This document shows, piece after piece, positions 2,454 to 53,176 of a DNA stretch of 64,000 bases (the stretch's first letter is position 1; the number at the start of each line of letters is the position of its first letter). A model generated the notes under the pieces. The model saw nothing but the letters and a program-made list of their open reading frames with translations, searched no databases and had not been told where the DNA came from. This DNA comes from an uncultured Bacilli bacterium (GTDB lineage: Bacteria > Bacillota_I > Bacilli_A > RF39 > UBA660). The translations under genes and the position numbers were made by a program. Location of the stretch: the NCBI GenBank assembly GCA_910589375.1, contig CAJUTK010000002.1:323188-387187 (forward strand), written 5' to 3'.

Positions 2454-2639
2454 ATGGAAGAAAGTAAGTATTATACTGATCCAAATGGTAATGTATGGGT
2501 TAGTGAAGAAGACTATAAAGCATATGCAGCTAGGGTAGAAACTAGTTATGTTGCACCAGATGCTACAGTGTGGGCTAGTAAAGCAGATTACGATGCTTAT
2601 GGTGCTCAAACACAAGAAGAGACTGCTAAGAGTCGCTAA
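2454..2639 (+). CDS. small protein with two copies of the DG-x-x-W-x-S-x-x-x-Y-x-A-Y repeat; the internal ATG at 2454 is the preferred start (RBS AAGGGGGA); the track ORF begins at 2421
   Basis: YTDPNGNVWVSEEDYKAYAAR and YVAPDATVWASKADYDAYGAQ; the same repeat occurs in the ORFs at 48828, 50853 and 52202; intrinsic terminator follows at about 2642-2672. Confidence 0.55.
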   Translation: MEESKYYTDPNGNVWVSEEDYKAYAARVETSYVAPDATVWASKADYDAYGAQTQEETAKSR

Positions 2640-2641
2640 TA

Positions 2642-2672
2642 AAAAAGGAATTTTGACTAATTCCTTTTTTTA
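2642..2672 (+). terminator. rho-independent terminator
   Basis: AAAGGAATT-ttgact-AATTCCTTT stem-loop followed by a T-run. Confidence 0.7.
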
Positions 2673-2708
2673 TGTTAGTATATCCTGAGAAAAAAAGGGG
2701 GAAAAAGG

Positions 2709-3779
2709 ATGGAAAAAGGGTTGAAATTTTTTCAAAATAGCTTCTTAGATGGAAAAAAGAAAATGGGAAGAAGAGTGACAACTTCTAAGTGTCTTACAAT
2801 GGGAGATTGCGTATTTTTATCTTCATCAAGTCTTAATTCCTCTAATGAACCTATAGAAATATTGTTTTTTATAGGGGAGGAAGCTAGATTTTTAGGAAAA
2901 AGAGTAACAATTGAATCTGTAAGTGTTGATGAAAACTTTAATGTTATTTATAGAGTAGCATATGATAGCGGTTGTAGAACCTCTGTAGATCAAAAACTTT
3001 TAGAAAGCGAGTTTGTTTTTCAAACTAGAATGGATTTAGAAAGAAGAACAACAATGATTTCTGCTCAACTAGGATTAAATGCACCTAGAAAAGTAGAATC
3101 ATCTCCGCTTGTAAAAAAAGAAGATTTAGTTTCACCAAGAGAAATTGCTTTCCCTTTACCTGCTTCTTTAGAACCTATAAAAAAACAGGAGAAGCAAGTA
3201 GATATTCAGATAGATGAAATTTTAAATTATTTACAAATGCCGTGTACTAGTAATGATTTTCAACAAGTTTACGAGGTTTTTAAAGTATATAAATTTCTTG
3301 TTCAAAATGGAAAGTATGATAAGGCCATTTTAAAAGATTATTTATCATCACCTCCTCCAGAGGTAGAAGTAGATGAGTCAAAATTATCAGAAGAAAGAAA
3401 GGTAGCTTTCGTTTTGCAACATTTACTTTCTAAAGTGGGTGTTAAAACTAAGATTGTTATATCACAAAATAAGAAGACAGGGTTACTACACGATGCTGTT
3501 TTAGTTAATTTATCTAAAAATTGGTATTTCTTTGATGTTGAACATGAAAGAGAATTTAATAGTAATTTGCTATTAGGAAGTTTTTCAATGGCTGCTTTAG
3601 GATTAGAAGAGTATACAAAGTATTATGAAGTGATGGGTGTTTTTTCAGAAATAGGAAGTAATCAGTTATATTCTCTTCCAATTAGTGTATCTAAAATTGG
3701 TATTTATTCTATGATAAAGAAGGGTATTGATAGACAATTATCTGATCTTACTTATTCTAAAGGAGAAAAAAAGATATAA
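2709..3779 (+). CDS. hypothetical protein; the C-terminal region (AFVLQHLLSKVGVKTKIV...LLHDAVLVNLSKNWYFFDVEHE) loosely resembles a transglutaminase-like core but lacks the catalytic Cys
   Basis: 356-aa ORF with RBS AAAGGGGGAAAAAGG. Confidence 0.5.
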   Translation: MEKGLKFFQNSFLDGKKKMGRRVTTSKCLTMGDCVFLSSSSLNSSNEPIEILFFIGEEARFLGKRVTIESVSVDENFNVIYRVAYDSGCRTSVDQKLLESEFVFQTRMDLERRTTMISAQLGLNAPRKVESSPLVKKEDLVSPREIAFPLPASLEPIKKQEKQVDIQIDEILNYLQMPCTSNDFQQVYEVFKVYKFLVQNGKYDKAILKDYLSSPPPEVEVDESKLSEERKVAFVLQHLLSKVGVKTKIVISQNKKTGLLHDAVLVNLSKNWYFFDVEHEREFNSNLLLGSFSMAALGLEEYTKYYEVMGVFSEIGSNQLYSLPISVSKIGIYSMIKKGIDRQLSDLTYSKGEKKI

Positions 3780-3788
3780 GAGGTATTT

Positions 3789-4194
3789 ATGAAAAGACTA
3801 GAAAAATATGAAATATTACAAACGGTTTTTTTATAGGGGAATGAGGGTCTTAGAATACATATCTATGTATCCAAAAATGGATGAATTAGATAAAGAAGCA
3901 ATTAAGTCTACTATTATGAGTGCCTTAGTGTATAAAAAAATGTATTGACCCTACTAGAGAGTTTTTAGATTTAGAGAATTCTAGAATTGTAACAAGAGGG
4001 GGATATAAATATCAAGAATATCCTTTTGTTACAGGGTACCCTTTATGGTTAAAAGAAGAAATGAGAAAGGGAATTATTAGACAATCAGGTTATGTGCCAA
4101 TTTCTGTTTATGCTGCTAGACCTCCAGGAAGAGCAAATTATTCTATCTATGATGCCAATACAGTACTAAGTGTCTTTTTCGATGAATTTTTATA
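3789..4194 (+). pseudogene. decayed gene: three short ORF fragments in three different frames, probably the remains of one ancestral gene that may continue into the 4258-4644 ORF
   Basis: MKRLEKYEILQTVFL* (frame 0), MRVLEYISMYPKMDELDKEAIKSTIMSALVYKKMY* (frame 1), ...RGGYKYQEYPFVTGYPLWLKEEMRKGIIRQSGYVPISVYAARPPGRANYSIYDANTVLSVFFDEFL* (frame 2); about 480 nt with coding-like composition but no ORF long enough to reach the track. Confidence 0.4.
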
Positions 4195-4257
4195 GAAGCA
4201 GATTATGATTCTCCGACAAGACATGGAGTTAGAGTAGAAAAAAGACCATTCTTAGAA

Positions 4258-4644
4258 GTGAAAATGGGAGAAAAAGTTTATCTAGTAGATACACTAACAA
4301 AACGTTTCTTTGAAAAAGAGGAATTTACTAGAAGATATCATTTGACAATATCTTGGATGGCTAATAATAAAGAATTTACACCAAATCAGCAAGAAATCTA
4401 TAAAGAGCAAACTGAGGAAAGAACGAAAGAATATGGAACATTCCTAGCTTTTGTTATTCCTATAATGGATTCTTTTAACTCATATCCTAAATTTCAAGAG
4501 TATATGTATGAATATGAAGAAAGCAAAAGAACTTTTCCCAGTGCTTTTGAAGATGCAAATAAACTGATGAAGGAATGTGAATCTTTTGTACCAATAGGGT
4601 TACCAAAGCAATATGTAAAAGAGAATAAGTCAGAAACAAATTAG
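4258..4644 (+). CDS. hypothetical protein, possibly the C-terminal remnant of the decayed gene upstream
   Basis: 128-aa ORF followed by a terminator (stem AAGAATT/AATTCTT plus T8) at about 4656-4682. Confidence 0.4.
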   Translation: MKMGEKVYLVDTLTKRFFEKEEFTRRYHLTISWMANNKEFTPNQQEIYKEQTEERTKEYGTFLAFVIPIMDSFNSYPKFQEYMYEYEESKRTFPSAFEDANKLMKECESFVPIGLPKQYVKENKSETN

Positions 4645-4655
4645 AGTATATAAAG

Positions 4656-4682
4656 AAGAATTTGAAAGAATTCTTTTTTTTC
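4656..4682 (+). terminator. rho-independent terminator
   Basis: AAGAATT-tgaaag-AATTCTT followed by T8. Confidence 0.7.
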
Positions 4683-4727
4683 GATTTCTCTTTTTTTTCT
4701 CTTTTATATTTGATATAATGAATAAAG

Positions 4728-5888
4728 GTGAGAAATGTGTTTAAAGATGATAAAAAACAAGTAAATTATCGTTCTGTGAACGAAGTACTAGATGTTACAA
4801 AGAAAATTTTAAAAGTATTACTAATTTTACTCATTATTCTAATATCATGGGTAGGATTAAGAATCATGGCAGAATTACATGTTTGGAATATTGTAATGAC
4901 TATTATTGGTATTTTAAGCCCGTTATTTCTAGGAATTGTTGTCGCCTGGTTATTTAATCCTTTTGTAAAATGGTTAAAAAAGTATAAGATAAAACGTTTA
5001 CCAGGAGTTATTATTTCTTATGTACTATTACTGGGTGTTTTAGCTCTTTTAGTAGGAACTATTATTCCTATATTATATGACCAGATTATAGATTTTGTAG
5101 AAACTTTACCAGGTTTATTTAGTACGATAGAAGAATGGTTAAATGGGGCATTCAGCAAAATAGAGTCTATAGAAGCTTTTGATATTGAAACCATGAAACA
5201 AAATATATTTACACAAGTAGAAAATTTAGGGACAGGATTAGTAGAGTCTTTACCAGGATATATCTTAAATGTTGGAAAAACTCTTGTTTCTGGTCTTAGT
5301 ACATTCTTAGTAGGATTAGTAATTGGTTTCTTCTTACTATTAAGCTTTGACAATATTGAAGAAACTTTTATTTATATATTCCCTAAAAAATGGAGAAAAG
5401 ATGCCAATGAATTATTCGGAGAAATTAATGATTGTTTAAAAAATTATGTTCGTGGAGTAGCATTAGATGCTCTTGTAATCTTTATTATTTGTGGAGTAGT
5501 ATTTAGTATCATAGGATTAAAAGCTCCTTTGTTATTTGCTATTTTTTGCGCAATTACTAATGTAATCCCTTATATTGGACCTTATATTGGGGCAGTTCCT
5601 GCGTTAATAGTTGGTTTTTCAATTAGCCCAACAGTAGGACTTTTAACAGGAGCTTCTATTATCGTTATTCAATTCTTTGAAGGAAACTTTTTACAACAAT
5701 ATATTATGAGTAAAACGACAAAGTTACATCCTGTTACTATTATTATGGGACTACTTGTTTTCCAACATTTCTGGGGAGTTATTGGAATGGCGTTATCTGC
5801 ACCTATTATAGGAATTTTAAAGATTATATTTAATTTTATAGATAGAAAATGGAAATTATTAGATTATGTAGATGAGGTGGAGGATTAA
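4728..5888 (+). CDS. AI-2E family transporter (PerM/YdiK-like, UPF0118)
   Basis: multi-pass membrane protein with the characteristic NVIPYIGPYIGAVPALIVGF segment; start is GTG at 4728 or GTG at 4737 (RBS AAAGGTGAG); extended -10 TGaTATAAT upstream. Confidence 0.75.
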   Translation: MRNVFKDDKKQVNYRSVNEVLDVTKKILKVLLILLIILISWVGLRIMAELHVWNIVMTIIGILSPLFLGIVVAWLFNPFVKWLKKYKIKRLPGVIISYVLLLGVLALLVGTIIPILYDQIIDFVETLPGLFSTIEEWLNGAFSKIESIEAFDIETMKQNIFTQVENLGTGLVESLPGYILNVGKTLVSGLSTFLVGLVIGFFLLLSFDNIEETFIYIFPKKWRKDANELFGEINDCLKNYVRGVALDALVIFIICGVVFSIIGLKAPLLFAIFCAITNVIPYIGPYIGAVPALIVGFSISPTVGLLTGASIIVIQFFEGNFLQQYIMSKTTKLHPVTIIMGLLVFQHFWGVIGMALSAPIIGILKIIFNFIDRKWKLLDYVDEVED

Positions 5889-5889
5889 T

Positions 5890-6432
5890 ATGAAGAAAAT
5901 TGTAGCAATTGTAGGCATGTGTGGAAGCGGTAAATCTATCGCTTCTGATTTATTAGAGAGCATGGGTTGGAAGAAAGTTTATTTTGGTGGCGTTACAATG
6001 GAAAAATTAAAAGAGGCTAACTTAGAAGTAACTCCAGAAAATGAAAAGATGATGAGGGAAGGACTACGTAGAGATTTAGGAATGGGAGCTTATGCTAAGA
6101 TTTTACTTCCTCGTATTTTAGAATATGCAGAAGAAGAAAATACAGTATTAGACGGTTTGTATTCTTGGGATGAATTAAAAATACTACAAGAAGAATTAAA
6201 GGGTAAGCTAAAAGTTATCGCTATTGTAGCAGACAGAGATTTACGTTATGAAAGATTATCACAACGTGCTATTAGACCCTTTACTCCTGAACAGGCTGAA
6301 GCAAGAGATATAGCAGAAATAGAAAATTCTGCTAAAGGCGGACCTATTGCGATGGCTGATTATTATATTGATAATAATCATGATTTAGAAAGTTATAAAG
6401 AGAGACTTCTTTCCATTATAGAAAGCATATAG
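5890..6432 (+). CDS. P-loop nucleotide/nucleoside kinase family protein (dephospho-CoA kinase-like / AAA)
   Basis: Walker A motif GMCGSGKS at the N-terminus; the preferred start MKKIVAIVG at 5890 follows RBS GAGGTGGAGG (the track ORF starts at 5872). Confidence 0.5.
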   Translation: MKKIVAIVGMCGSGKSIASDLLESMGWKKVYFGGVTMEKLKEANLEVTPENEKMMREGLRRDLGMGAYAKILLPRILEYAEEENTVLDGLYSWDELKILQEELKGKLKVIAIVADRDLRYERLSQRAIRPFTPEQAEARDIAEIENSAKGGPIAMADYYIDNNHDLESYKERLLSIIESI

Positions 6433-6441
6433 AGGTGACAT

Positions 6442-8190
6442 ATGAACTTAAAAGATTTATACATAGAATTTTTTGTACGTCATAATCATAAACAGATACC
6501 AAGTGCGCCTGTAGTTCCAGAGAATGACCCTAGCGTTTTGTTTAATACAGCAGGAATGCAACCATTAATTCCTTATTTAATGGGGCAACCTCATCCATAT
6601 GGAACAAGATTGTGTGACTATCAAAAATGTATTCGTACAAATGATTTAGATTCTGTTGGAGATACTACACACCATACATTTTTTGAGATGTTAGGAAATT
6701 GGAGTTTAGGCGATTATTTTAAGGAAGAAAGTATTGAGTGGAGTTATGAATTTTTAACACAAGATTTAAAAATACCTGCTGATAGATTGGCAGTTACCGT
6801 TTTTGCTGGAAATGATATTATTCCATTTGATTCTGTGAGCCATGATAAATGGCTAAGCTTAGGAATTCCAGAAGAGAGAATTGCTCGTACTGTGGAAGAT
6901 AATTTTTGGATAGCAGGAGAATCTGGACCATGCGGACCTGATACAGAGATTTTCTATTTTAGAAGTGAAGAGGAAATACCAACTAGCTTTGACCCAGAAG
7001 ATAGTCGTTGGGTAGAAATTTGGAACAATGTATTTATGCAATATCATAAGGATTCAGAAGGAAAAGTAACAGAGCTTCCAAATAAAAATGTAGATACTGG
7101 AATGGGTGTAGAACGCACTACAGCGATTTTAGAAGGTGTAAATGATAATTATGAATCTAGTATTTGGAAAGATATTATTGAAATGATATCTACTATTTCT
7201 GGATTGCCTTATAATGATGAAAATAAAAAGAGTATGCGTATTATTGCAGATCATATGAGAACCGCTGTATTTATTAGTGCAGATCCAGCTGGTATTAAAC
7301 CAAGCAATACAGATCAAGGCTATATTCTAAGAAGATTAATTAGAAGAGCTATTCGCCACGCTAAAAACTTAAATATGGATATCAATAGTGATTGGGAGAG
7401 AAAGATAGCAATCTTAATACTAGATAAATATAAAACATATTATAAGGAATTAGAAGATAATTATCAGTTAGTATTAGATGTTTTAAAAACGGAAAAAGAG
7501 AAATTTAATAGAACGTTAGAAAAAGGATTAAGAGAGTTTGAAAAAGCGACTAGAAATAAAAATAATATAGATGATATCACTGCATTTCATTTATATGATA
7601 CTTATGGATTTCCAATCGAGCTTACTGTAGAACTTGCCAAAGAACGTGGTATTACTGTAGATGAAGAAGGATTCGAAAGAAAATTTAAAGAGCACCAAGA
7701 ATTATCTCGCACTGCTTCTGCTGGAAAATTTAAAGGTGGATTAGCAGGTGATGGTGAGACTGAAACGAAATATCATACAGCAACTCACTTATTAAATGCA
7801 GCACTTAAAATAGTAGTTGGTCCTGATGTACATCAAAAAGGAAGTAATATAACTTCTGAGAGAATGAGATTTGACTTTAGCTGTGACCATAAACTAACAG
7901 ATGACGAAAAGTTTAAAACAGAAGAATTAGTAAACAAATGGATTCAAGAAGGATTAGAAGTTTCTGTAGAAGAAATGAAAAAAGAAGAAGCAATTGCTTC
8001 TGGTGCAGAATGCATGTTTATTGAAAAATATCCTGATATTGTAACTGTTTATACAATAGGAGATAATGTATCTAAAGAGTTATGCGGTGGTCCTCATGTT
8101 TCTAATACAAGAGAATTAGGTCATTTTAAGATAGCAAAAGAAGAAGCTAGTAGTGCTGGAGTAAGACGTATTAAGGCTATACTAGAATAG
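6442..8190 (+). CDS. alaS: alanine--tRNA ligase, compact form (582 aa) with catalytic, tRNA-recognition and editing domains but no C-terminal C-Ala domain
   Basis: N-terminal motifs FFVRHNHKQIPSAPVVP...NDPSVLFNTAGMQP and GMGVERT; editing-site motifs HTATHLLNAALK and CGGPHVSNTRELGHFKI...GVRRIKAILE; the ORF stops straight after the editing domain. Confidence 0.85.
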   Translation: MNLKDLYIEFFVRHNHKQIPSAPVVPENDPSVLFNTAGMQPLIPYLMGQPHPYGTRLCDYQKCIRTNDLDSVGDTTHHTFFEMLGNWSLGDYFKEESIEWSYEFLTQDLKIPADRLAVTVFAGNDIIPFDSVSHDKWLSLGIPEERIARTVEDNFWIAGESGPCGPDTEIFYFRSEEEIPTSFDPEDSRWVEIWNNVFMQYHKDSEGKVTELPNKNVDTGMGVERTTAILEGVNDNYESSIWKDIIEMISTISGLPYNDENKKSMRIIADHMRTAVFISADPAGIKPSNTDQGYILRRLIRRAIRHAKNLNMDINSDWERKIAILILDKYKTYYKELEDNYQLVLDVLKTEKEKFNRTLEKGLREFEKATRNKNNIDDITAFHLYDTYGFPIELTVELAKERGITVDEEGFERKFKEHQELSRTASAGKFKGGLAGDGETETKYHTATHLLNAALKIVVGPDVHQKGSNITSERMRFDFSCDHKLTDDEKFKTEELVNKWIQEGLEVSVEEMKKEEAIASGAECMFIEKYPDIVTVYTIGDNVSKELCGGPHVSNTRELGHFKIAKEEASSAGVRRIKAILE

Positions 8191-8198
8191 GAGAGTTT

Positions 8199-8945
8199 AT
8201 GCAAGAGAAAACATTAAGATCTATTTTAATGGTTGTTATTTTTTTAGTAGCCTTGGTTGGTATTTCAGTAACTTTGAATGATAGAAAAGAAAACAAGCCA
8301 TCTAATACAAATTCTAATTTAGAGGATGGGCGTAAATTTAAAGAGGAATATGAAGCATACAACAATAAAGAAAGAGAAGATGACAAAGGAAATTATTTTC
8401 AAAAATTAGATATTCCTGAAAATAATCCTATAAAATATGCAAGTATCGCGGAAGCAGTAGAACTTTTAAATAAAGGTACAGGTGTTATTTATTTTGGATA
8501 TCCAACTTGTCCTTGGTGCCGAAATGCTGTTCCAGTATTATTAGAAGCTGCCAAGGAAAAGAAAATGAACAGAATATATTATTTAAATGTCAATGAGTAC
8601 AAAAATACTTTCATGGTAAATGATGGAAAAGTAGAGAAAGTGAAAGAAGAAAAAGATGGGTACTATGATTTATTAAAGGCACTAGATAGTGTATTAGACC
8701 CATATGTACTAACTTCAGATGGTAAAACGTATGAGGTGGGAGAAAAAAGAATCTATGTTCCTTTCGTAGTATTTGTAAAAGATGGAAAAATTGTTAGTAC
8801 TCATCTAGGCACAGTTAATTTAGAAGGTACTCAAACAAAGTATGATGTTTTAACGAAAAAACAGCATGATGAATTACTAGATACTTATTTATCAGCAATT
8901 GAAGATATCCAATCAAATAGTTATTGTGATGAGGATTGTGAATGA
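8199..8945 (+). CDS. membrane-anchored thioredoxin-fold protein with a CPWC active-site motif
   Basis: N-terminal TM helix; YFGYPTCPWCRNAVPVL. Confidence 0.55.
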   Translation: MQEKTLRSILMVVIFLVALVGISVTLNDRKENKPSNTNSNLEDGRKFKEEYEAYNNKEREDDKGNYFQKLDIPENNPIKYASIAEAVELLNKGTGVIYFGYPTCPWCRNAVPVLLEAAKEKKMNRIYYLNVNEYKNTFMVNDGKVEKVKEEKDGYYDLLKALDSVLDPYVLTSDGKTYEVGEKRIYVPFVVFVKDGKIVSTHLGTVNLEGTQTKYDVLTKKQHDELLDTYLSAIEDIQSNSYCDEDCE

Positions 8946-9565
8946 ATTTTCAAATAAAATGCGAAGAAATGCTTGAAAAAATTCATGAAAGAAGAGATAC
9001 ACCATCTCTTCTTCTTCATGCTTGTTGTGGCCCTTGTAGTAGTTATGTGTTAGAATATTTAAGTAAATATTTCAACATTACAATTCTTTATTATAATCCT
9101 AATATTTATCCAGAGGAAGAGTATAGAAGAAGATTAGAAGAATTAAAAAAGTTTTTAAAGGATTGCTCTTTTGAAAATACTGTTTCTTTAGTTGAGACAA
9201 GATATTTACCAGAAGAATATTATCAGGCAGTAGATGAATTTAAGCAATTAGGAGAAAGGAGCTTACGGTGTTATCACTGTTATCAACTCCGAATGGAAGA
9301 GGCGTGTCAATATGCTTCTAAGCATCATATAGAATTTTTTACTACAACTCTTTCTATTAGTCCTTATAAAAATAGTGAATGGATTAATGAAATTGGTGAA
9401 AAGTTAGAACAAAAATATGGAGTGTCTTATTTATATGCTGATTTTAAAAAGAAAAACGGATATAAGCGTTCTTTAGAATTATCTAGAGGGTATAATCTTT
9501 ATAGGCAAGATTATTGTGGTTGTGTGTTTTCAAAAGAAGAGAGAATGTCAGTTATTAAAAAATAA
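8942..9565 (+). CDS. queH: epoxyqueuosine reductase QueH (DUF208)
   Basis: LLLHACCGPCSSY, CYHCYQLRMEEA and DYCGCVFSKEE cysteine motifs; the start overlaps the upstream gene by 4 nt. Confidence 0.8.
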   Translation: MNFQIKCEEMLEKIHERRDTPSLLLHACCGPCSSYVLEYLSKYFNITILYYNPNIYPEEEYRRRLEELKKFLKDCSFENTVSLVETRYLPEEYYQAVDEFKQLGERSLRCYHCYQLRMEEACQYASKHHIEFFTTTLSISPYKNSEWINEIGEKLEQKYGVSYLYADFKKKNGYKRSLELSRGYNLYRQDYCGCVFSKEERMSVIKK

Positions 9566-9593
9566 AAAAATTGGATTTTGTCCAATTTTTTTA
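9566..9593. terminator. bidirectional intrinsic terminator between convergent genes
   Basis: AATTGGA-ttttg-TCCAATT flanked by an A-run and a T-run. Confidence 0.7.
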
Positions 9594-10118
9594 TTTTTTA
9601 TTGCATTCAGCGCCTGTTGCCATGTAAGAAGCTTGAATAGAAGAAAGCGTATATTGATTATCGTCATTTAGATAAGTTTTTAGTTTCGGCTGATTTTCAG
9701 CCATTTGCTCTAAATTTATTTTTGTATAATCAATATCGGTATCTACTATTAAATTCTTACCAGAAATTTTTGTATTATAAGTATATCCACCATATTTACT
9801 TGCTTCTACATAAGTATTTTCCATTTTATTTTGAAGAGAGGAAAGCTTTCCTTTATTGTTAGAGGATAAAATTTGCTGTCCTACTACTCTAATAACGATA
9901 TCTTTATCATTTGTATAAATAGCAAATTTAGCTCCCATAACATATCCTTCTGAATCGCTATAGTCTTTATCTACAGTACATACAGCACTAGCATCTTCTT
10001 CATTTAATATAATTTTACTAGAAAGGTTTGTATCTAGTTTTTCTTCTTCAGTATCATTACATCCGACTAAAAGGAATACACATAGCGCCACAAATAAATA
10101 TTTACTACATTTTTTCAT
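9591..10118 (-). CDS. lipoprotein of unknown function
   Basis: signal peptide with lipobox LLVGC (MKKCSKYLFVALCVFLLVGCNDTEEE). Confidence 0.6.
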   Translation of the reverse strand: MKKCSKYLFVALCVFLLVGCNDTEEEKLDTNLSSKIILNEEDASAVCTVDKDYSDSEGYVMGAKFAIYTNDKDIVIRVVGQQILSSNNKGKLSSLQNKMENTYVEASKYGGYTYNTKISGKNLIVDTDIDYTKINLEQMAENQPKLKTYLNDDNQYTLSSIQASYMATGAECNKK

Positions 10119-10229
10119 ATCATCACCTAATTCATTATAACATAAAAAAAGAAAAAAGAATATGAAGAGTGGAAAAATTCATAATTGCGTAATTTTCTTC
10201 TTGCTGATATAATAATAATGGAGGTAGTT

Positions 10230-10754
10230 ATGAAGATATTAATAGCAACAGAAAACCATGTAAAAGTAGATGCTTGCAGGTCTGCTTTTGAAAATTATTT
10301 TGATAATGTAGAAATAGAGGTAGTACATGCACCATCAGAAGTACCTGAAATGCCAAAAAATGATGAAATAAGCCAAGGAACTAGAAATAGAATAAAAAAT
10401 TTAAAAAAATATGCAAGAGAAAATAATATAAAGGTAGACTATTATGTTGCAGTAGAATCTGGTATTGATAATTATTTTGATTCATGGATGATTACTAGTG
10501 TAGCAGGAATAGAAAATGATGAGGGTTTGAAAAGTTATTCTACTAGTCCTAGTTATCCTATACCAGAAGCTTATGTAGATTCTATTATAGAAGAGGGATT
10601 AGGCGTTGTAATGGATAGAATTTTTGCTGATGATGATTCTGGTCATAGTAAAGGTGGCATTGGCTTTTTAACGCATGGAAAGATTACTAGAAGACAATTG
10701 CTTTATGAATCTTTTATGATGGCACTTATTCGTATTATTAATGATAATTGGTAA
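10230..10754 (+). CDS. inosine/xanthosine triphosphatase (YjjX / NTPase_I-T family)
   Basis: VAVESGID and GGIGFLTHGKITRRQL match the YjjX motifs VAIEAGID and GAIGVFTAGKLTR; preferred start MKILIATEN follows RBS GGAGGTAG (the track ORF begins at 10185). Confidence 0.75.
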   Translation: MKILIATENHVKVDACRSAFENYFDNVEIEVVHAPSEVPEMPKNDEISQGTRNRIKNLKKYARENNIKVDYYVAVESGIDNYFDSWMITSVAGIENDEGLKSYSTSPSYPIPEAYVDSIIEEGLGVVMDRIFADDDSGHSKGGIGFLTHGKITRRQLLYESFMMALIRIINDNW

Positions 10755-10807
10755 TTTTTCACTTAATTCTCACTTAATTTACACATAAGGAAAGTATAAT
10801 GAGTTTG

Positions 10808-10939
10808 TTAGCTGATAAAGCATAAGTGTGAAATACTCCTCTCACTTATTTACTTTTCTACTACAAACCCATTATTAATAAATTTTAAATGTTAATAACT
10901 AACAGCTAACGAAAAAAGAATAAGAATATTCTTTTTTTT
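10808..10939 (+). ncRNA. candidate structured small RNA or 3'-UTR element with an 8-bp long-range stem (GTTAGCTG 10807-10814 / CAGCTAAC 10903-10910); it ends in an intrinsic terminator and sits after a TATAAT at 10795-10800
   Basis: inverted repeat enclosing about 90 nt; terminator AAGAATA-agaa-TATTCTT plus T8 at 10916-10939; no ORF longer than 8 codons. Confidence 0.3.
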
Positions 10940-48827: not shown

Positions 48828-50405
48828 ATGAATATGAATTTAGGACTTACTGATACATTAAATAGAGTATTAGGGTCAAAAGGAATTGCAAAAAAAGGAT
48901 TTGTTTTATTAAATACTACTAAGAAGAAAATTGTAGCTGCAAGTTTAGCATTTACATTAGCTGTAGGTGGAGGAACAGTTGCTTATAATCATTTTAATGG
49001 TGGATCTGCTGCTGACGTACCAGCACCACAGAATCCAGTGGTTACAAATGATTCAGAGACTCCAACAGATACTCCTGTTGCAACGGATCAATTTGGAATT
49101 TTAGCTGATGGTTTAGAAATTGATGGCTTAGGCATGAAAAATGATATGTTAACAATTGAAGAACAAGCTAAGAAAATAGCAGAGGAAATGGGTGCAACTT
49201 ATGATGGACCTTCATATGATGTAACTGATAAAGATGGTAATCCACAAAGTTGGGTTAGTGAGGACGATTATAATAAAGCAGTTGATGCTGGTTTACAAGA
49301 TGCTCCTGTTGGTACTGAAGTTACTACTTATGATCAAGACGTATTTGTTGCTGATGATGGTACTCCATTTGAAACAGAAGCTGATAAAGATGCATGGAAT
49401 GCTTATTTAAAACAACAAAATGACGGTAAAACTGGTACAGTTATAGAAACTGAAGGTAATGTTTATGTAGCTGAAGATGGTACTGTATGGGCTTCAAAAG
49501 AAGATGCAGATGCCTATAACAATTCACAAAATGGTACAGTAACTACTGTTACTGATGGAGATGTAGTAGAAGCTGGTGAAGGATATAGAGATCCAGAAGG
49601 TAATTATTGGACTAGCGAAGCAGAATATCAAGCTTATATTTCAGGTGTTAACAATATTAATGGCGGAAATAGTGTAGTTGGCGGAAGCGATGTAACTTAT
49701 GAAGATGATAACTTATATCGTGCACCAGACGGATCAGTATGGGCAAGCGAAGCAGAATACCAAGCATATATTTCAAATATCAACAATGTAGTTGGTGGAG
49801 ATAATGTAGTTGGTGGAAATGATGTAACTTATGATGATAATTTCTACCATGCACCAGATGGATCAGTATGGGCAAGTGAAGCAGAGTATCAGGACTATAT
49901 AAAGAGTCAAAGTTCTATGTCAGGTACTTTTGTACAAAATACTTCAACAGGAACACAAACCCAAGAACCACCAATAGAAGCAACAGATGATTTCTATCAC
50001 GCACCAGATGGATCAGTATGGGCAAGTGAAGAAGAATACCAAGCATTTGTAAATAGTCAACAATCTGAATCTGCAACTTATACTCAAACTTCTGCTGCAG
50101 AAACACCAGCACAAGAGCCACCAATAGAAGCAACAGATGATTTCTATTATGCACCAGATGGATCAGTATGGGCAAGCGAAGCAGATTATCAAGCTTTTGC
50201 AAATAGTGCTGTAGAAGAATCTCAAGAAGTAGTGGAGAGTTCTGAAGAAGAAAAGAAAAATGATATTGTTTTAGATGAATATGGCGGATACATTGATCCA
50301 GAAACTGGTTTCTATTGTGTAGATGGCGAATATTATGCTACGAAAGCAGATTATATTGCTTATAGACAAATGGAAAATGGTAATGATAACGAAAAAACAA
50401 TGTAA
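48828..50405 (+). CDS. secreted or membrane-anchored protein built from about nine ~20-aa repeats (consensus Y-x-A-P-D-G-S-V-W-A-S-E-A-E-Y-Q-A-Y); unknown family
   Basis: N-terminal signal-anchor (IVAASLAFTLAVGGG); repeats YRAPDGSVWASEAEYQAYIS, YHAPDGSVWASEAEYQDYIK, YHAPDGSVWASEEEYQAFVN, YYAPDGSVWASEADYQAFAN and more degenerate copies. Confidence 0.7.
   Translation: MNMNLGLTDTLNRVLGSKGIAKKGFVLLNTTKKKIVAASLAFTLAVGGGTVAYNHFNGGSAADVPAPQNPVVTNDSETPTDTPVATDQFGILADGLEIDGLGMKNDMLTIEEQAKKIAEEMGATYDGPSYDVTDKDGNPQSWVSEDDYNKAVDAGLQDAPVGTEVTTYDQDVFVADDGTPFETEADKDAWNAYLKQQNDGKTGTVIETEGNVYVAEDGTVWASKEDADAYNNSQNGTVTTVTDGDVVEAGEGYRDPEGNYWTSEAEYQAYISGVNNINGGNSVVGGSDVTYEDDNLYRAPDGSVWASEAEYQAYISNINNVVGGDNVVGGNDVTYDDNFYHAPDGSVWASEAEYQDYIKSQSSMSGTFVQNTSTGTQTQEPPIEATDDFYHAPDGSVWASEEEYQAFVNSQQSESATYTQTSAAETPAQEPPIEATDDFYYAPDGSVWASEADYQAFANSAVEESQEVVESSEEEKKNDIVLDEYGGYIDPETGFYCVDGEYYATKADYIAYRQMENGNDNEKTM
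49630..50215 (+). repeat. intragenic near-identical tandem DNA repeats (about 123-bp and 150-bp units) encoding the PDGSVWASE motif
   Basis: gcaccagatggatcagtatgggcaag(c/t)gaagcaga... occurs four times; a stretch of more than 60 nt, ccaccaatagaagcaacagatgatttctat...gcaccagatggatcagtatgggcaag, is repeated at about 49969 and 50119. Confidence 0.8.
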
Positions 50406-50426
50406 TAAAAGTAAGAAAAAAGGGGT

Positions 50427-50458
50427 AAAGATTGAGAATTTCTCAATCTTTTTTTATT
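50427..50458 (+). terminator. strong rho-independent terminator
   Basis: AAAGATTGAGA-att-TCTCAATCTTT (11-bp stem) followed by T7. Confidence 0.85.
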
Positions 50459-50529
50459 TTTTTAAAATTTTGTTGTTACTAAGTTTAAAATGTGATATGA
50501 TAAATATAGAAAAAATAGGAGGGTAGTTT

Positions 50530-50841
50530 ATGAATCAATTGAAATATGCTAATTTTCGTTTGTTACTGGATTCTAAAGCTAACAGTGTTGGGGTTTCAAA
50601 AACAGATTGTGTGAGACATGTGCTTTCAGGTATGTATAAACTGACTCTACTTAGTAAAGAAGGTTTTGTAGGTCTAAAAAAGTTGCAAGAAAGACAAGCA
50701 CAAGATTTAGAAATTGATACTCGTAAAGCTGTGAATAAAGCACTTCAAGATAATCCTATTGTTAATCCGAGGGATGAAGAATATATACAAGAAGTGAGAT
50801 CTTTTGTTAGAGGCGAGATTAGAGGAAGGTTTCATCGTTAG
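50530..50841 (+). CDS. hypothetical cytoplasmic protein
   Basis: 103-aa ORF with RBS AGGAGGG. Confidence 0.4.
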   Translation: MNQLKYANFRLLLDSKANSVGVSKTDCVRHVLSGMYKLTLLSKEGFVGLKKLQERQAQDLEIDTRKAVNKALQDNPIVNPRDEEYIQEVRSFVRGEIRGRFHR

Positions 50842-50852
50842 GGGGAAATGAA

Positions 50853-51107
50853 ATGAGCAGAAGTAGAAAAATATCCCTTTCCATTGTGGCAATAGGCTTG
50901 CTATTAGTTATTGGAAAGAACTTTGGAAATGGAAGTTTAGGTACAAGTGTAGTAAATGTAGGAAATAGAGATTATTATCAAGATGAAGATGGGGCTTTAT
51001 GGGAAAGTAAGAAGAGCTATGAAAATTATGATGATACTTCTTACTTTGTAGCACCAGATGGAAGCTATTGGGTAAATGAATATCGTTATTTACAATCAAA
51101 GAGATAG
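50853..51107 (+). CDS. small secreted protein with two copies of the DG-x-x-W-x-S repeat
   Basis: signal/TM segment (ISLSIVAIGLLLVIG); DEDGALWESKKSYENYDD and YFVAPDGSYWVNEYRYLQ. Confidence 0.5.
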   Translation: MSRSRKISLSIVAIGLLLVIGKNFGNGSLGTSVVNVGNRDYYQDEDGALWESKKSYENYDDTSYFVAPDGSYWVNEYRYLQSKR

Positions 51108-51144
51108 TTTTCTCTCTTTTTTTATGATAGAAAGATGGTAAAAT

Positions 51145-52140
51145 ATGAAAAAATTCATAAATTTTGTAAGAGATAATTGTTTATTTCTTATCATATATGT
51201 TGTTGTATTCTCCTTATTAATGGTTAAATTTCCATATTATATAGATGCACCAGGAGGTCTTATTAATGTTGACAATAGAATTGAAATAGAAGGAGGTTAT
51301 CTTTCTTCAGGCAGTCTTAATTTAGCTTATGTGACAGAATATGAGGCGACTTTACCTATGCTTTTTATATCTCTATTTAAAGATGATTGGGATGTTTATC
51401 CAAAGAAGAGTAATGAAGTATCTGATTCTTATGAAGATTTACTTGCTAGAGATAGATTATGGATGAAAGCTTCCTATGCGAATGCAACTATTTTGGCTTA
51501 CGAAAAGGCTGGTAAGGAAATTGAAATTACAGATAGAGAGCTTTTTGTTTTATATATTTATAAAGAAGCAAATACTGATTTGAAGGTAGGAGATGAATTG
51601 CTATCAGTAGAAGGAAAAGAAATACATGATAGAAAAGACTTGGCTTTAGCGATTTCTTCTAAAAAAGCTGGAGAATCTATTTCATTAAAGGTTCTTCATA
51701 ATGGAAAAGAATTTGATAGAACGGCAGAAGTTCTTGAAATAGATGGTACTAAGATTATTGGTATAGTTCCTTCTGAGATTAGGGAGTATAAAGCTAACCC
51801 TAGTATTAAAATATCTTATGGAGATTCAGAATCTGGTCCAAGTGGAGGATTGATGGTTACTTTAGCAATTTATAATGCTTTGGTAGAAGAAGATATTACA
51901 GGAGGGCTTACTATTGTAGGTACTGGAACTATTGAATCTGATGGTACTGTTGGTGAAATCGGAGGAGTAGAATATAAATTAAAGGGCGCAGTTGCTAAGA
52001 AAGCTGATTTATTTTTCGTGCCAGCTGGTATTAATTATGAGGAAGCTATAAGGTTAAAAGAAAAGAAAAAGTATTCTATTACTATTGTACCAGTTTCTAC
52101 TTTTGATGAAGCTTTAACTTATTTGAAAGAGAATGTATAA
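51145..52140 (+). CDS. SepM/YlbL-family membrane-anchored serine protease (PDZ plus Lon-like S16 C-terminal domain)
   Basis: N-terminal TM helix; PDZ region (LKVGDELLSVEGKEI); Lon-like serine motif GPSGGLMVTLAIYNAL. Confidence 0.75.
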   Translation: MKKFINFVRDNCLFLIIYVVVFSLLMVKFPYYIDAPGGLINVDNRIEIEGGYLSSGSLNLAYVTEYEATLPMLFISLFKDDWDVYPKKSNEVSDSYEDLLARDRLWMKASYANATILAYEKAGKEIEITDRELFVLYIYKEANTDLKVGDELLSVEGKEIHDRKDLALAISSKKAGESISLKVLHNGKEFDRTAEVLEIDGTKIIGIVPSEIREYKANPSIKISYGDSESGPSGGLMVTLAIYNALVEEDITGGLTIVGTGTIESDGTVGEIGGVEYKLKGAVAKKADLFFVPAGINYEEAIRLKEKKKYSITIVPVSTFDEALTYLKENV

Positions 52141-52201
52141 TAAATATTTGCAAACATTCTCTTTTTATGGTAGAATAGGTTCAATTAAGGAGGCTTGTGG
52201 T

Positions 52202-53176
52202 ATGAGAGTAAATAAAGAAGCCGCTTCAAAGATTAGAGGAAGGGCAAAAAAAACATTACGAAATTTCGTGAAAAGTAGTAGAGATACTGCTCTAGTATTA
52301 CCATCAGTACAAATTTTTTGTTCTGAAAAAATGACACAAGATTATCCCACTTACGCATATGTTCCTTACAATCAATTATGGGGGAATAAGGAAGCTATTC
52401 ACAAAATATCTATTCGGGTTGCTAATAATGGTTTAGGAATTGTCAATAAAAAAGATGCAAATCCAGAATTATTAAAAGAAATTTATCATTGCTTAGGAGA
52501 GGCAAAAGTAGAGAATTCAAAATATGATATTATTACTTTCCGTTTATGGAAAGATAATTCTAATATTCCTACAATTGATAGAACTTCATTTGCTTTCTAT
52601 AAGAAAAATATATCTTTATTAAGACCTTTTACTTGCATGGATGCTTATTTGCCAGTTACTGTTTTTATGGCACCAGATGGTCAGCAATGGGTTGATGAAA
52701 GAAATTATATAGTATATGCGAGTAATCAAAACGCAGTATATCAATGTAGTGATGGTACTCTTGCTAATTCTTATGATAAATTTAAAGATTGGGAATGTGA
52801 GTTAGCATATCATCCTCGTAATCCTTTATGTCCAACTTATTCAGACTCTCAAGAAACATTAGAAACTATTGGATATTTAGAGTGTAGTGATGGCACTATT
52901 TGGAGAGACTCTACTTTATTAGGGGAATATCTTGAGTGGAAAGAAAATAAAAATTATGGAATGAAAGATGGCCTTTATGTAGGTATGTATGGAACTTGTT
53001 CTAGTTTTGAAGATTATGCTAGATTTTATAATGCAGCTTATTATGTAAATGCTGGATTGTCTCGTGGAAGTCAGTTTTGCGGGGCTTATGGGTTCTTATA
53101 TTCTACTGAGGAAAGTGCTTTTATTTCTATTGATAAATTAAATGGATATCAGAAAGTAAAAAATAAAGAAAATTAA
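52202..53176 (+). CDS. hypothetical Cys-containing protein with three divergent copies of the DG-x-x-W repeat
   Basis: FMAPDGQQWVDERNYIVYASNQ, YQCSDGTLANSYDKFKDWEC and LECSDGTIWRDSTLLGEYLEWKE; preferred start at 52202 follows RBS AAGGAGG (the track ORF starts at 52133); my manual reading of the 3'-end coordinate disagrees with the track by 1 nt. Confidence 0.5.
   Translation: MRVNKEAASKIRGRAKKTLRNFVKSSRDTALVLPSVQIFCSEKMTQDYPTYAYVPYNQLWGNKEAIHKISIRVANNGLGIVNKKDANPELLKEIYHCLGEAKVENSKYDIITFRLWKDNSNIPTIDRTSFAFYKKNISLLRPFTCMDAYLPVTVFMAPDGQQWVDERNYIVYASNQNAVYQCSDGTLANSYDKFKDWECELAYHPRNPLCPTYSDSQETLETIGYLECSDGTIWRDSTLLGEYLEWKENKNYGMKDGLYVGMYGTCSSFEDYARFYNAAYYVNAGLSRGSQFCGAYGFLYSTEESAFISIDKLNGYQKVKNKEN

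What the first reader, a model, noticed from the sequence alone, without database searches (positions are those of the whole stretch)
2454..53176. Four paralogous repeat proteins in one window (2454, 48828, 50853, 52202), three of them clustered around the ylbJ-like and sepM-like genes
The same DG-x-x-W-x-S-x-x-x-Y-x-x-Y motif occurs in four ORFs. The first is a 61-aa signal-less protein with 2 repeats. The second is the 525-aa protein with about 9 repeats. The third is an 84-aa secreted protein with 2 repeats. The fourth is a 324-aa Cys-containing protein with 3 divergent repeats. Three of them flank a SepM-family protease; in streptococci SepM processes a secreted peptide pheromone. Lineage-specific expansion of a small extracytoplasmic repeat module suggests a surface or signalling role.
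Basis: partly seen in the sequence, partly recalled or inferred. Interest (0 to 1): 0.5.

Follow-up and report, generated by a model that had tools for sequence, protein, structure and literature searches.

The report
Orphan envelope repeat proteins beside YlbL/SepM protease
Four genes in this uncultured gut Bacilli genome share a rare, unannotated 23-residue hairpin-plus-helix repeat; three of them sit in a gene cluster with a YlbL/SepM-type membrane protease that is kept in every relative found, so they are probably membrane-tethered envelope proteins working with that protease, but their function is untested.

Summary
A ~23-residue unit, Y-x-A-P-D-G-x-x-W-x-S-E-x-E-Y-x-x-Y, occurs in exactly four ORFs of the window: p61, p525, p84 and p324. 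It is far above chance.

- **Rarity:** an exhaustive profile search of 1.84 billion representative proteins gave 114 hits, about 105 of them genuine. No curated family covers the window proteins.
- **Fold:** AlphaFold models of p525 and p324 give each unit as a beta-hairpin plus helix, with disordered acidic linkers between units in p525. The nearest structures are tandem C2H2 zinc fingers, but the matches are not significant and there are no metal ligands.
- **Location:** 22 of 33 p525 homologues carry a lipobox, most p324 orthologues have a signal peptide, and p84 has an N-terminal membrane helix. p61 has none of these.
- **Synteny:** the block ylbJ(-) | p525 – p103 – p84 – PDZ-Lon protease – p324 – mutS recurs in every related MAG found, all uncultured gut Bacilli. 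This is a conserved clade-specific module, not a recent expansion.
- **Reading:** the proteins are most likely tethered envelope proteins that are clients of the protease, which resembles B. subtilis YlbL as much as SepM. Pheromone-precursor features are absent.

Interest is moderate.

The parts
2454..2639 (+). p61: 61-aa acidic protein (pI 4.3), two units (aa 5-27 = nt 2466-2534; aa 30-52 = nt 2541-2609), no signal or TM segment, C-terminus ...EETAKSR
   Evidence: RBS GAAGGGGGA lies upstream of ATG 2454, and an AT-rich hairpin plus T-run follows the stop. The orthologue P0074 sits at the same proS-frr-[gene]-380 aa position in GCA_011262095.1.
47799..48662 (-). ylbJ-like membrane protein (Gate domain), divergent from p525
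   Evidence: Pfam Gate E = 3.7e-11. TIGR02871 YlbJ E = 1.4e-43, below its cut-off. Present next to the p525 gene in L007 and L009; a ylbJ match is also found in 7 of the 9 loci compared.
48766..48794 (+). Sigma-70-like promoter of p525 (TTGACA-17-TAGTAT with upstream TG)
   Evidence: Best-scoring promoter-like site in 47700-53400. Sequence read. A consensus match only.
48828..50405 (+). p525: N-terminal basic segment, hydrophobic anchor (aa 35-53), conserved juxtamembrane motif, 9 units separated by acidic linkers, tail ...NEKTM. pI 4.05.
   Evidence: The AF2 model gives 9 hairpin-helix units at pLDDT 75-93, linkers below 50, pTM 0.23. 33 homologues are aligned in A4.
49215..49286 (+). p525 unit 1, divergent (aa 130-153)
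   Evidence: Weak HMM hit. AF2 strands 130-133 and 139-142, helix 145-153.
49338..50207 (+). p525 canonical units 2-8 (aa 171-193, 211-233, 251-273, 295-317, 338-360, 388-410, 438-460). DNA tandem arrays at 49614-49891 (period 132) and 49836-50207 (period 150).
   Evidence: HMM domain scores 32-45 bits. Tandem Repeats Finder gives about 80% matches.
50286..50390 (+). p525 unit 9, variant with an extra strand (DEYGGY...DGEYYATKADYIAY)
   Evidence: AF2 three strands plus helix 506-521, pLDDT about 93. This variant is the dominant unit in P0010.
50427..50461 (+). Intrinsic-terminator-like hairpin plus T-run after p525
   Evidence: 11-pair stem followed by TTTTATTTTT.
50530..50841 (+). p103: conserved basic protein (pI 9.7) without a TM segment or the repeat, lying between p525 and p84
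   Evidence: A match is found in 7 of the 9 loci compared; orthologues from seven loci are aligned. No family hit.
50853..51107 (+). p84: short basic N-terminus, TM segment aa 7-25, two units (nt 50970-51038 and 51039-51104), conserved C-terminus W-x-N-E-Y-R-Y-L-x-S-x-R
   Evidence: Orthologues from 9 related loci plus P0083 and P0121 are aligned.
51145..52140 (+). YlbL/SepM-type membrane serine protease: N-terminal TM segment, PDZ domain, Lon_C (S16) domain, predicted dyad S233/K278
   Evidence: PDZ_2 E = 2.7e-9 and Lon_C E = 8.6e-6. SepM_fam_S16 E = 1.4e-48, 165.6 bits against a cut-off of 200. Hit to the B. subtilis YlbL PDZ structure 2kjp, E = 2.9e-4. GPSGG and EYKLKGA motifs read.
52202..53176 (+). 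p324 (347 aa from 52133): N-terminal domain (aa about 52-170) plus five hairpin-helix units. The canonical unit VFMAPDGQQWVDERNYIVYA is at nt 52658-52726. 9 Cys, of which one (C182, in YQCSDG) is invariant.
   Evidence: A2/A3 alignments. AF2 mean pLDDT 72.9.
53230..55773 (+). mutS, the conserved downstream neighbour of the cluster
   Evidence: 77-92% identity across relatives.

Best explanation
**The module.** The four ORFs are genuine paralogues built from one small module. It is a ~23-residue unit that is predicted to fold as a beta-hairpin followed by a helix.

Nearly every conserved position can be read as fold-determining:
- the P-D-G positions as a tight turn;
- S-x-x-E as a helix-capping box;
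- Y, W, Y and Y/F as a small aromatic core.

I therefore read the unit as a structural bead rather than a catalytic or ligand-specific site. The assignment of these residue roles is my inference.

**The proteins.**
- p525 is an N-terminally tethered, strongly acidic 'beads-on-a-string' envelope protein. It is a lipoprotein in most relatives and signal-anchored in this genome, and it has its own promoter-like site and terminator-like hairpin.
- p84 is a small bitopic membrane protein carrying two units outside the cell.
- p324 is an exported protein in most relatives, with a distinct N-terminal domain and five packed units.
- p61 is a signal-less two-unit relative encoded elsewhere, beside frr.

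**The cluster.** p103, p84, the PDZ-Lon protease, p324 and possibly mutS look like one operon that follows p525, and this block is kept throughout the clade.

**Most likely working.** The tethered repeat proteins form a fast-evolving layer in the wall zone. They are clients of the adjacent YlbL/SepM-type membrane protease, either as substrates or as partners. The conserved C-terminal tails (…E-x-K-T/S/Q-R) may be what the PDZ domain recognises.

**What is shown and what is inferred.**
- Shown: the repeat, its rarity and the conserved synteny.
- Predicted: the fold and the topology.
- Inferred: the protease-client relationship and the role of the tail.
For: **The repeat is real and rare**
- It is confined to four ORFs of the window and is far above chance.
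- An exhaustive profile search gave only 114 hits at E <= 1e-3 among 1.84e9 representatives. About 10 of these are false, matching only the Y-T-A-P-D-G half.
- No Pfam, NCBIfam or PHROG family covers the window proteins.
- No partner domain recurs among 95 hits.

**Fold**
- Two independent AF2 models give hairpin plus helix for every unit. In p324 the mean pLDDT is 72.9. In p525 the units score 75-93 and the linkers below 50.
- The top five Foldseek hits for p525 are all tandem C2H2 arrays (E = 0.05-1.4).

**Topology**
- A lipobox is present in 22 of 33 p525 homologues.
- Most p324 orthologues have a signal peptide.
- p84 has a TM helix in all 12 family members aligned, the window's included.

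**Link to the protease**
- A p525-like protein, p84, the PDZ-Lon protease, p324 and mutS occur in the same order in L007-L009, L011-L017 and L024/L025; the short contig L010 holds p84 and p324.
- In the more divergent L018, two differently built repeat proteins (long cytoplasmic domain, TM segment, C-terminal units) sit directly upstream of the protease.
- The protease evolves much faster than its housekeeping neighbours: 43-79% identity against 77-92% for MutS. The repeat proteins do the same, at 30-65%.

**C-terminal tail**
- The last residue is R in 45 of 105 hits, against 5 of 59 background ORFs.
- [TSQ]R at the C-terminus occurs in 28 of 105 hits, against 1 of 59.

**Precedent**
- B. subtilis YlbL is a membrane PDZ-Lon protease that acts on YneA, a small protein with an N-terminal TM domain whose bulk lies outside the cell (PMC6051672).
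Against: - No experiment or expression data bears on any of these genes.
- The conserved synteny lies within one narrow clade (MutS at least 77% identical), so vertical inheritance alone could explain the linkage.
- p525 appears to be a separate transcription unit, with its own promoter-like site and terminator-like hairpin.
- p61 lacks any export signal and is not linked to the protease.
- Some family members lie in unrelated contexts: P0071 beside Ser/Thr kinases and P0073 in an integrative element.
- A C-terminal Arg is not a classical PDZ ligand (my own knowledge). The window's own p525 ends in ...EKTM and p324 in ...NKEN, so the tail rule is loose.
- The fold matches are not statistically significant, and both AF2 alignments are shallow (15 and 33 sequences).
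- The window's p324 has a degenerate signal peptide.
Confidence: 0.45

Rival explanations
1. This is the first reader's model: a pheromone or signalling system. The small paralogues p84 and/or p61 would be precursors of secreted signalling peptides, matured by the SepM-like protease in the way S. mutans SepM trims CSP-21.
For: - The protease matches the SepM family model over its full length (E = 1.4e-48).
- SepM is an extracellular TM-PDZ-S16 protease that cleaves CSP-21 (PMC11197336).
- p84 is small and lies immediately upstream, separated by a 38-nt gap.
- The C-terminal tails are conserved.
Against: - The score of 165.6 bits is below the equivalog cut-off of 200.
- p84 has a plain N-terminal membrane anchor and no double-glycine leader.
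- The public calls for the 21.6 kb locus L001 list no C39 or ABC-transporter, histidine-kinase or LytTR family.
- The most conserved part of p84 is a folded repeat unit, not a short diffusible peptide.
- p61 has no export signal.
- The same module builds a 525-aa tethered protein, which does not fit a pheromone.
Confidence: 0.08
2. This is a YneA-like checkpoint model. p84 would be a small membrane-bound inhibitor, for example of cell division or wall synthesis. It would be cleared by the YlbL-type protease, as in the B. subtilis DNA-damage checkpoint, and its position beside mutS would reflect a link to DNA repair.
For: - YlbL acts on YneA, a small protein with an N-terminal TM domain and an extracellular bulk (PMC6051672). 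p84 has the same size class and topology.
- The protease lies by a ylbJ-like gene, as ylbL does in Bacillus (the Bacillus gene order is from my own knowledge).
- It matches the YlbL PDZ structure 2kjp.
- mutS is always immediately downstream of the cluster.
Against: - There is no LysM domain.
- No LexA-box-like site lies near the cluster. The GAAC-N4-GTTC scan gave 11 matches against 13.3 expected, and none falls between 28000 and 60600.
- p84 is apparently co-transcribed with its supposed protease, rather than separately induced.
- The model does not explain p525, p324 or p61.
Confidence: 0.12
3. This model treats the repeat proteins as an independent surface coat or adhesins. They would be fast-evolving, variable surface (lipo)proteins used for shielding, adhesion or evasion of phage and host immunity in the gut. 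Their position next to the protease would be inherited gene order with no functional coupling.
For: - The proteins diverge rapidly (p525 30-53% against MutS 77-92%).
- Unit number varies from 3 to 9, and the gene is duplicated in several genomes.
- Tandem duplication is visible at the DNA level.
- p525 has its own promoter-like site and terminator-like hairpin.
- Most homologues are lipoprotein-anchored.
- All examples come from gut MAGs.
Against: - The order of the cluster genes from p525 to mutS is kept even where the flanking pilin genes and the architecture of the repeat proteins change.
- p84 and p324 are tightly spaced with the protease on one strand.
- The conserved C-terminal tail suggests a protein partner.
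- The proteins are strongly acidic, whereas known wall-binding modules tend to be basic (my own knowledge).
Confidence: 0.3
4. The motif is a compositional or low-complexity artefact of an AT-rich genome, and the small ORFs are not genes.
For: - The genome is 31% G+C.
- The linkers of p525 are low-complexity and acidic.
Against: - Shuffles never give the strict motif.
- Only four of 752 six-frame ORFs match the HMM.
- Orthologues of each protein are conserved at the protein level in syntenic positions in other genomes.
- p61 has an RBS, a promoter-like site and a terminator-like hairpin.
- AF2 predicts the same ordered unit in two different proteins.
Confidence: 0.01

Closest known systems
B. 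subtilis YlbL (PDZ-Lon membrane protease) with its substrate YneA
   Same: - The protease has the same TM-PDZ-Lon_C architecture, with a predicted Ser/Lys dyad.
- It lies next to a ylbJ-like gene.
- A small protein with an N-terminal TM segment and an extracellular bulk (p84) is a plausible client.
   Different: - The candidate clients carry the new hairpin-helix repeat rather than a LysM domain.
- No LexA box was found near the cluster.
- The clients are encoded in the same cluster as the protease.
- No activity data exist.
Streptococcal SepM (NF041438), the CSP-21-processing protease
   Same: The window protease matches the family model over its full length, and SepM also acts on an extracellular substrate.
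   Different: - The score is below the equivalog cut-off.
- No ComC-like peptide with a double-glycine leader was seen, and no ComAB- or ComDE-type genes appear within about 10 kb.
- The neighbouring small protein is membrane-anchored and folded.
C2H2 zinc-finger arrays (beta-beta-alpha units in tandem)
   Same: - The predicted topology of each unit is the same.
- The spacing of core aromatic residues is similar: Y-x2-turn-x3-W-x5-Y-x2-Y against (F/Y)-x-C-x2-5-C-x3-F-x5-hydrophobic-x2-H. The zinc-finger consensus is from my own knowledge.
- Tandem zinc-finger arrays are the top structural hits for two different proteins.
   Different: - There are no Cys or His ligands, so the unit would be metal-free.
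- The proteins are extracytoplasmic and acidic rather than basic and DNA-binding.
- This is a resemblance of shape, not homology.
Pfam DUF7196 (PF23826) and the hairpin-helix half of MBD (PF01429)
   Same: Both share the local pattern Y-x-x-P-x-G-x-x-[FW]-x-S-x-x-E-x-x-x-Y. One homologue, P0031, just passes both cut-offs (29.3 against 27 bits; 22.5 against 21 bits).
   Different: - The window proteins give no hit at E <= 1.
- Only part of each profile is matched.
- None of the hits listed by the word-index searches carries a precomputed Pfam domain.
Variable repeat surface lipoproteins of low-G+C Gram-positives and Mollicutes; choline-binding or cell-wall-binding repeats
   Same: - The proteins are tethered by an N-terminal lipid or TM anchor.
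- They carry tandem short repeats rich in aromatic residues.
- Copy number varies and divergence is fast.
   Different: - There is no sequence relationship (Choline_bind_3 E = 0.23).
- The unit includes a helix rather than being a pure hairpin.
- The proteins are strongly acidic.

Membership tests
SepM family S16 protease (NCBIfam NF041438) | Whole-protein score at or above the curated cut-off of 200 bits | tested here: not met
   165.6 bits, E = 1.4e-48, model positions 10-339 of 340.
SepM/YlbL-type protease | N-terminal TM segment, PDZ domain and Lon_C (S16) domain, with no AAA+ module | tested here: met
   PDZ_2 at aa 143-190 and Lon_C at aa 230-325. The hydrophobic segment at aa 12-30 has a Kyte-Doolittle mean of 2.43.
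SepM/YlbL-type protease | Catalytic Ser-Lys dyad | tested here: met
   GPS233GG and EYK278LKGA are conserved against the L018 orthologue. Compare YlbL S234 in PMC6051672. Shown by sequence only.
SepM pheromone system | A ComC-like precursor with a double-glycine leader, and ComAB or ComDE genes | tested here: not met
   No GG leader in p84 or p61. The public calls for the 21.6 kb locus L001 list no C39 or ABC-transporter, HisKA or LytTR family. The rest of the genome was not examined.
YlbL-YneA checkpoint (B. subtilis) | A LexA-regulated small TM protein with a LysM domain as substrate | tested here: not met
   No LysM hit. No GAAC-N4-GTTC site near the cluster. p84 does share the small-size, N-terminal-TM topology.
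YlbL orthology | Neighbourhood with ylbJ and similarity to the YlbL PDZ domain | tested here: met
   The nearby divergent gene hits TIGR02871 YlbJ at E = 1.4e-43, below its cut-off. The protease hits 2kjp, the YlbL PDZ structure, at E = 2.9e-4. The Bacillus gene order is from my own knowledge.
C2H2 zinc finger | Cys2His2 metal ligands | tested here: not met
   The units have A/P/D in place of Cys and Y in place of His. Only C182 of p324 is invariant.
C2H2 zinc finger | Beta-beta-alpha fold | tested here: inconclusive
   The AF2 secondary structure fits. The structural matches are top-ranked but not significant.
Pfam DUF7196 (PF23826) | Score at or above the gathering threshold of 27 bits | tested here: not met
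   No hit for the window proteins at E <= 1. Among homologues, P0031 scores 29.3 bits and the others 15-21 bits. The family relationship therefore stays inconclusive.
Pfam MBD (PF01429) | A full methyl-CpG-binding domain at or above 21 bits | tested here: not met
   Only profile positions 23-58 of 77 are matched. P0031 reaches 22.5 bits with no single stretch passing on its own. The window proteins give no hit.
Choline-binding or cell-wall-binding repeats | A match to Choline_bind_3 or CW_binding models | tested here: not met
   p84 scores E = 0.23, 11.9 bits against a cut-off of 27.
Bacterial lipoprotein | A lipobox [LVI][ASTVI][GAS]C after the signal hydrophobic segment | tested here: not met
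   The window's p525 has ...AVGGGTVAY and no Cys. 22 of 33 homologues do have a lipobox.
ABM / heme-degrading monooxygenase (the JGI name for P0009) | An ABM domain | tested here: not met
   Only a 15-residue W-x-S-E helix-cap match to IsdI, E = 0.09. The NCBIfam HmuQ hit has E = 0.56. The name is spurious.

The most novel reading that the evidence does not exclude
The unit is a previously undescribed, metal-free mini-domain that folds on its own. It would be a natural analogue of a zinc finger, held together by an aromatic core. The repeat proteins, together with the adjacent YlbL/SepM-type protease, would form a dedicated envelope proteolysis module. In that module the conserved C-terminal tail (…E-x-K-T/S/Q-R) acts as the tag read by the PDZ domain. 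If so, this would be a genetically linked set of natural clients for a protease family whose mode of substrate recognition is still unknown.
Probability: 0.15. Interest if true: 0.6.

Novelty: new variant of a known kind. Interest (0 to 1): 0.35.

Why it matters
**The protease family.** YlbL/SepM-type PDZ-Lon proteases are widespread in Firmicutes, but only two substrates have been reported: YneA and CSP-21. How they recognise substrates is unresolved. The YlbL authors could not detect activity from YlbL lacking its TM domain in vitro, and they leave the role of the PDZ domain open (PMC6051672). A clade in which the protease is always encoded together with three tethered proteins, all sharing one module and a conserved C-terminal tail, offers concrete candidate clients to test.

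**The repeat.** A 23-residue hairpin-helix unit with an all-aromatic core and no metal ligands would be among the smallest natural folding units. It could interest people who work on protein folding and design.

**Annotation.** The family has no annotation at present, and one member is mis-named a heme monooxygenase.

**Limits.** The organisms are uncultured, the family is tiny, and nothing here overturns current understanding.

Tried and rejected
- **LexA-box scan.** Matches were at chance level and none lay near the cluster. An SOS-regulated YneA analogue is therefore not supported.
- **Viral origin.** A scan of IMG/VR with a four-unit segment found no relative, and PHROGs gave no hit.
- **PDB sequence search with the unit profile.** It returned only spurious ABM helix-cap matches.
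- **Foldseek of the p525 model.** Nothing was significant.
- **AFDB50 fold library.** It was unavailable.
- **Partner-domain search on 95 family members.** No domain recurred. There was one Pkinase fusion and one Sigma70_r4 fusion.
- **Zinc site in p324 unit 2 (C...H...C...H).** Rejected, because only C182 is invariant in the alignment.
- **p103 as a ribbon-helix-helix regulator, or p84 as an anti-sigma factor.** Neither has support. p103 has no family hit, and p84 has only about 6 cytoplasmic residues.
- **Tool limits.** The unit alignment was too short or too variable for the search for related loci and the search for homologous proteins, so a two-unit alignment was used instead.
- **Short contigs.** Context look-ups for P0054 and P0089 returned contigs too short to be useful.

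Full report
**1. The observation**

The four ORFs exist as described.
- p61 (2454-2639) has two units and no hydrophobic segment. A good RBS (GAAGGGGGA) precedes ATG 2454, and an AT-rich hairpin follows the stop.
- p525 (48828-50405) has a basic N-terminus and a hydrophobic segment at aa 35-53. It has seven canonical and two divergent units.
- p84 (50853-51107) has a TM segment at aa 7-25 and two units.
- p324 (52202-53176, or 347 aa from 52133) has one unit that the HMM recognises and several degenerate ones.

The consensus from 38 aligned units is x-Y-x-A-P-D-G-x-x-W-x-S-E-x-E-Y-x-x-Y.

An HMM of the units finds only these four among 752 six-frame ORFs, with the next best at E = 4.5. The strict regular expression occurs 5 times against 0 in 200 shuffles, and the loose one 8 times against a mean of 0.165.

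Between the four genes, DNA similarity is limited to short stretches of p61 and p525, at 76-82% identity. Inside p525, two tandem DNA arrays of period 132 and 150 (about 80% identity) show that units 4-8 arose by duplication within the gene.

**2. What the unit is**

No curated family covers the window proteins.
- The best Pfam hits are sub-threshold: DUF7457 at E = 0.011 and Choline_bind_3 at E = 0.23.
- NCBIfam gives only compositional noise.
- PHROGs gives nothing.
- The PDB sequence search gives only a 15-residue helix-cap match to ABM proteins. That match explains why JGI names one homologue 'HmoA'.
- Some homologues touch DUF7196 and the hairpin-helix half of MBD. P0031 scores 29.3 against 27 bits and 22.5 against 21 bits. 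I read this as a shared local supersecondary motif, or at most a very distant relationship.

AlphaFold models were made for two different family members.
- For p324 (15 sequences, mean pLDDT 72.9), every unit comes out as strand-turn-strand-helix.
- For p525 (33 sequences), the nine units have pLDDT 75-93. The linkers are below 50 and pTM is 0.23, which describes beads on a flexible acidic string.

The conserved residues can all be read as structural. P-D-G would form a turn, S-x-x-E a helix cap, and the four aromatic residues a small core. This assignment of roles is my inference.

**3. How widespread it is**

An exhaustive profile search of 1.84 billion 50%-identity representatives gave 114 proteins at E <= 1e-3 and 44 at E <= 1e-10. 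About ten of the 114 are large proteins that match only the first half of the motif.

The genuine hits fall into four groups.
- p525-like tethered proteins with 3-9 units.
- p84-like proteins.
- Tiny signal-less proteins of 31-97 aa with one or two units, like p61.
- Proteins with a long cytoplasmic helical N-domain, a TM helix and C-terminal units.

No partner domain recurs.

Word-index searches gave 11 clusters for p525, 15 for p324 and 15 for the small proteins. None of the hits carries a precomputed Pfam domain, and apart from the spurious 'HmoA' label none has an informative name.

A scan of one genome per GTDB species with the p324 family found 8 species. Seven are titled 'uncultured Bacilli bacterium' MAGs, from mouse and rabbit gut, and the eighth (L010) is titled Muribaculaceae, probably a binning error. 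The window itself matches mouse-gut MAGs such as GCA_948521505.1.

**4. Topology**

- 22 of 33 p525 homologues have a lipobox Cys straight after the hydrophobic segment. The window's lineage has lost the Cys and probably keeps a signal anchor.
- Most p324 orthologues have a clear signal peptide. The window's copy and a few others have a shortened, doubtful one.
- All 12 p84 family members aligned, the window's included, have a basic N-terminus and one TM helix.
- p61 and similar small proteins have nothing of the kind.
- p525 is strongly acidic, with pI 4.05 and 98 Asp plus Glu.

**5. Gene context**

The order is ylbJ-like(-) | p525 – p103 – p84 – PDZ-Lon protease – p324 – mutS. This block sits inside a type IV pilus or competence-like locus.

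The same order from the p525-like gene through the protease and p324 to mutS is found in L007, L008, L009, L011-L017 and L024/L025; a ylbJ-like gene is found beside the p525 gene wherever the contig reaches that far. p103 is replaced by other small ORFs in L017 and L024/L025. The short contig L010 holds only part of the block. The p525 gene is sometimes duplicated.

In L018, MutS is 77% identical to the window's. There, two repeat proteins of the 'long cytoplasmic domain' type sit directly upstream of the protease.

Identities to the window across relatives are:

| Gene | Identity to the window |
|---|---|
| mutS | 77-92% |
| parE | 86-98% |
| protease | 43-79% |
| p84 | 34-65% |
| p324 | 30-60% |
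| p525 | 30-53% |

The envelope set therefore evolves quickly, and the protease with it.

p525 has the best promoter-like site of the region and a terminator-like hairpin. The genes from p103 to p324 are closely spaced on one strand.

p61 is conserved at its own locus. The orthologue P0074 lies at proS-frr-[gene]-380 aa in GCA_011262095.1.

**6. The protease**

It has a TM segment, a PDZ domain and a Lon_C domain. It matches the SepM family model over its full length but below the cut-off, at 165.6 against 200 bits. It also matches the solved PDZ domain of B. subtilis YlbL. GPS233GG and K278 supply the expected dyad.

In B. subtilis, ylbL lies near ylbJ (my own knowledge). YlbL is a membrane protease that acts on YneA, a small protein anchored by its N-terminus with most of its mass outside the cell. 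How YlbL recognises YneA is unknown (PMC6051672). SepM cleaves CSP-21 (PMC11197336).

**7. A conserved tail**

Among 105 genuine hits, the last residue is Arg in 45 and Lys in 26. In background ORFs of the window the figures are 5 and 9 of 59. A C-terminal [TSQ]-R occurs in 28 of 105 hits against 1 of 59.

In p525-like proteins the tail reads …E-x-K-T-R, or -L or -M. In p84 it reads …NEYRYLxSxR. A free, conserved C-terminus next to a PDZ protease suggests a recognition tag. That is an inference, and Arg is not a typical PDZ ligand.

**8. Interpretation**

The best reading is a clade-restricted envelope module. It would consist of tethered, acidic proteins built from a small hairpin-helix bead, encoded with a YlbL/SepM-type protease that probably acts on them or with them. 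I give this a confidence of 0.45.

The rivals are:
- an independent, fast-evolving surface coat with no link to the protease (0.30);
- a YneA-like inhibitor model for p84 (0.12), weakened by the lack of a LysM domain and of LexA boxes;
- the pheromone model (0.08), weakened by the lack of a leader peptide, transporter and sensor genes;
- an artefact (0.01).

**9. Novelty and interest**

The repeat is an unannotated family in a tiny, uncultured clade. The kind of thing is familiar: repeat-bearing envelope proteins, and a PDZ protease with membrane-anchored clients. I therefore rate it a new variant of a known kind and of moderate interest (0.35).

Its main value is as a set of testable candidate clients for a protease family that is poorly understood. 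It is also a possible natural metal-free beta-beta-alpha mini-domain.

Noticed in passing
window 40797-47791 and 55834-58250: A type IV pilus or competence-like gene set brackets the cluster: T2SSF, prepilin peptidase A24, T2SSE on the minus strand, a 166-aa ORF, and a 678-aa pilin-like protein (N_methyl plus Listeria-Bacteroides repeats plus DUF11). After mutS come two N_methyl pilins and a 424-aa CAP/Big_2 protein. The pilin genes diverge strongly between relatives: the 678-aa protein aligns over only 10-23% of its length.
   Followed up: partly
window 50530-50841: p103 is a basic 103-aa protein with no TM segment and no family hit. It lies between p525 and p84, and a match is found in 7 of the 9 loci compared. 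Its N-terminal ~65 residues are conserved (MN.i.YANF...GV...sGMW.lTvlTKEGFaG) and its C-terminus is variable. Its function is unknown.
   Followed up: partly
window 2709-3779: A 356-aa ORF directly downstream of p61 has no Pfam or NCBIfam family. A 380-aa ORF occupies the same position in the relative L022.
   Followed up: no
window 51145-52140 compared with 53230-55773: The YlbL/SepM-like protease evolves far faster than its neighbour MutS: 43% against 77% identity to L018, and 59-79% against 82-92% in the other relatives.
   Followed up: partly
window 52133-52330 (N-terminus of p324): The signal peptide that most p324 orthologues carry is shortened and doubtful in the window's copy and in P0015, P0016, P0023 and P0024. 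Either export has been lost in this sub-lineage or the start and topology differ.
   Followed up: no
P0009 (JGI); L010 (CAZRIC010000092.1): Two public labels look wrong. P0009 is named 'heme-degrading monooxygenase HmoA', apparently because of a 15-residue W-x-S-E helix-cap match. The contig L010 is filed under 'uncultured Muribaculaceae' but carries this Bacilli cluster, so it is probably a binning error.
   Followed up: partly
L021 7001-7999 (P0071); L023 5001-5213 (P0073): Some members lie outside the cluster context. P0071 (332 aa, units at its N-terminus) follows two Ser/Thr kinase genes on a contig that also carries a dockerin-bearing cellulase. P0073 (70 aa) lies among integrase, FtsK and resolvase genes, which suggests a mobile element.
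   Followed up: no
window 47799-48662 (-): The ylbJ-like gene encodes 287 aa and scores well below the YlbJ equivalog cut-off (149 against 305 bits, model positions 4-221 of 363). It may be a truncated or diverged form. In L024/L025 the ORF at this position encodes only 217 aa.
   Followed up: no
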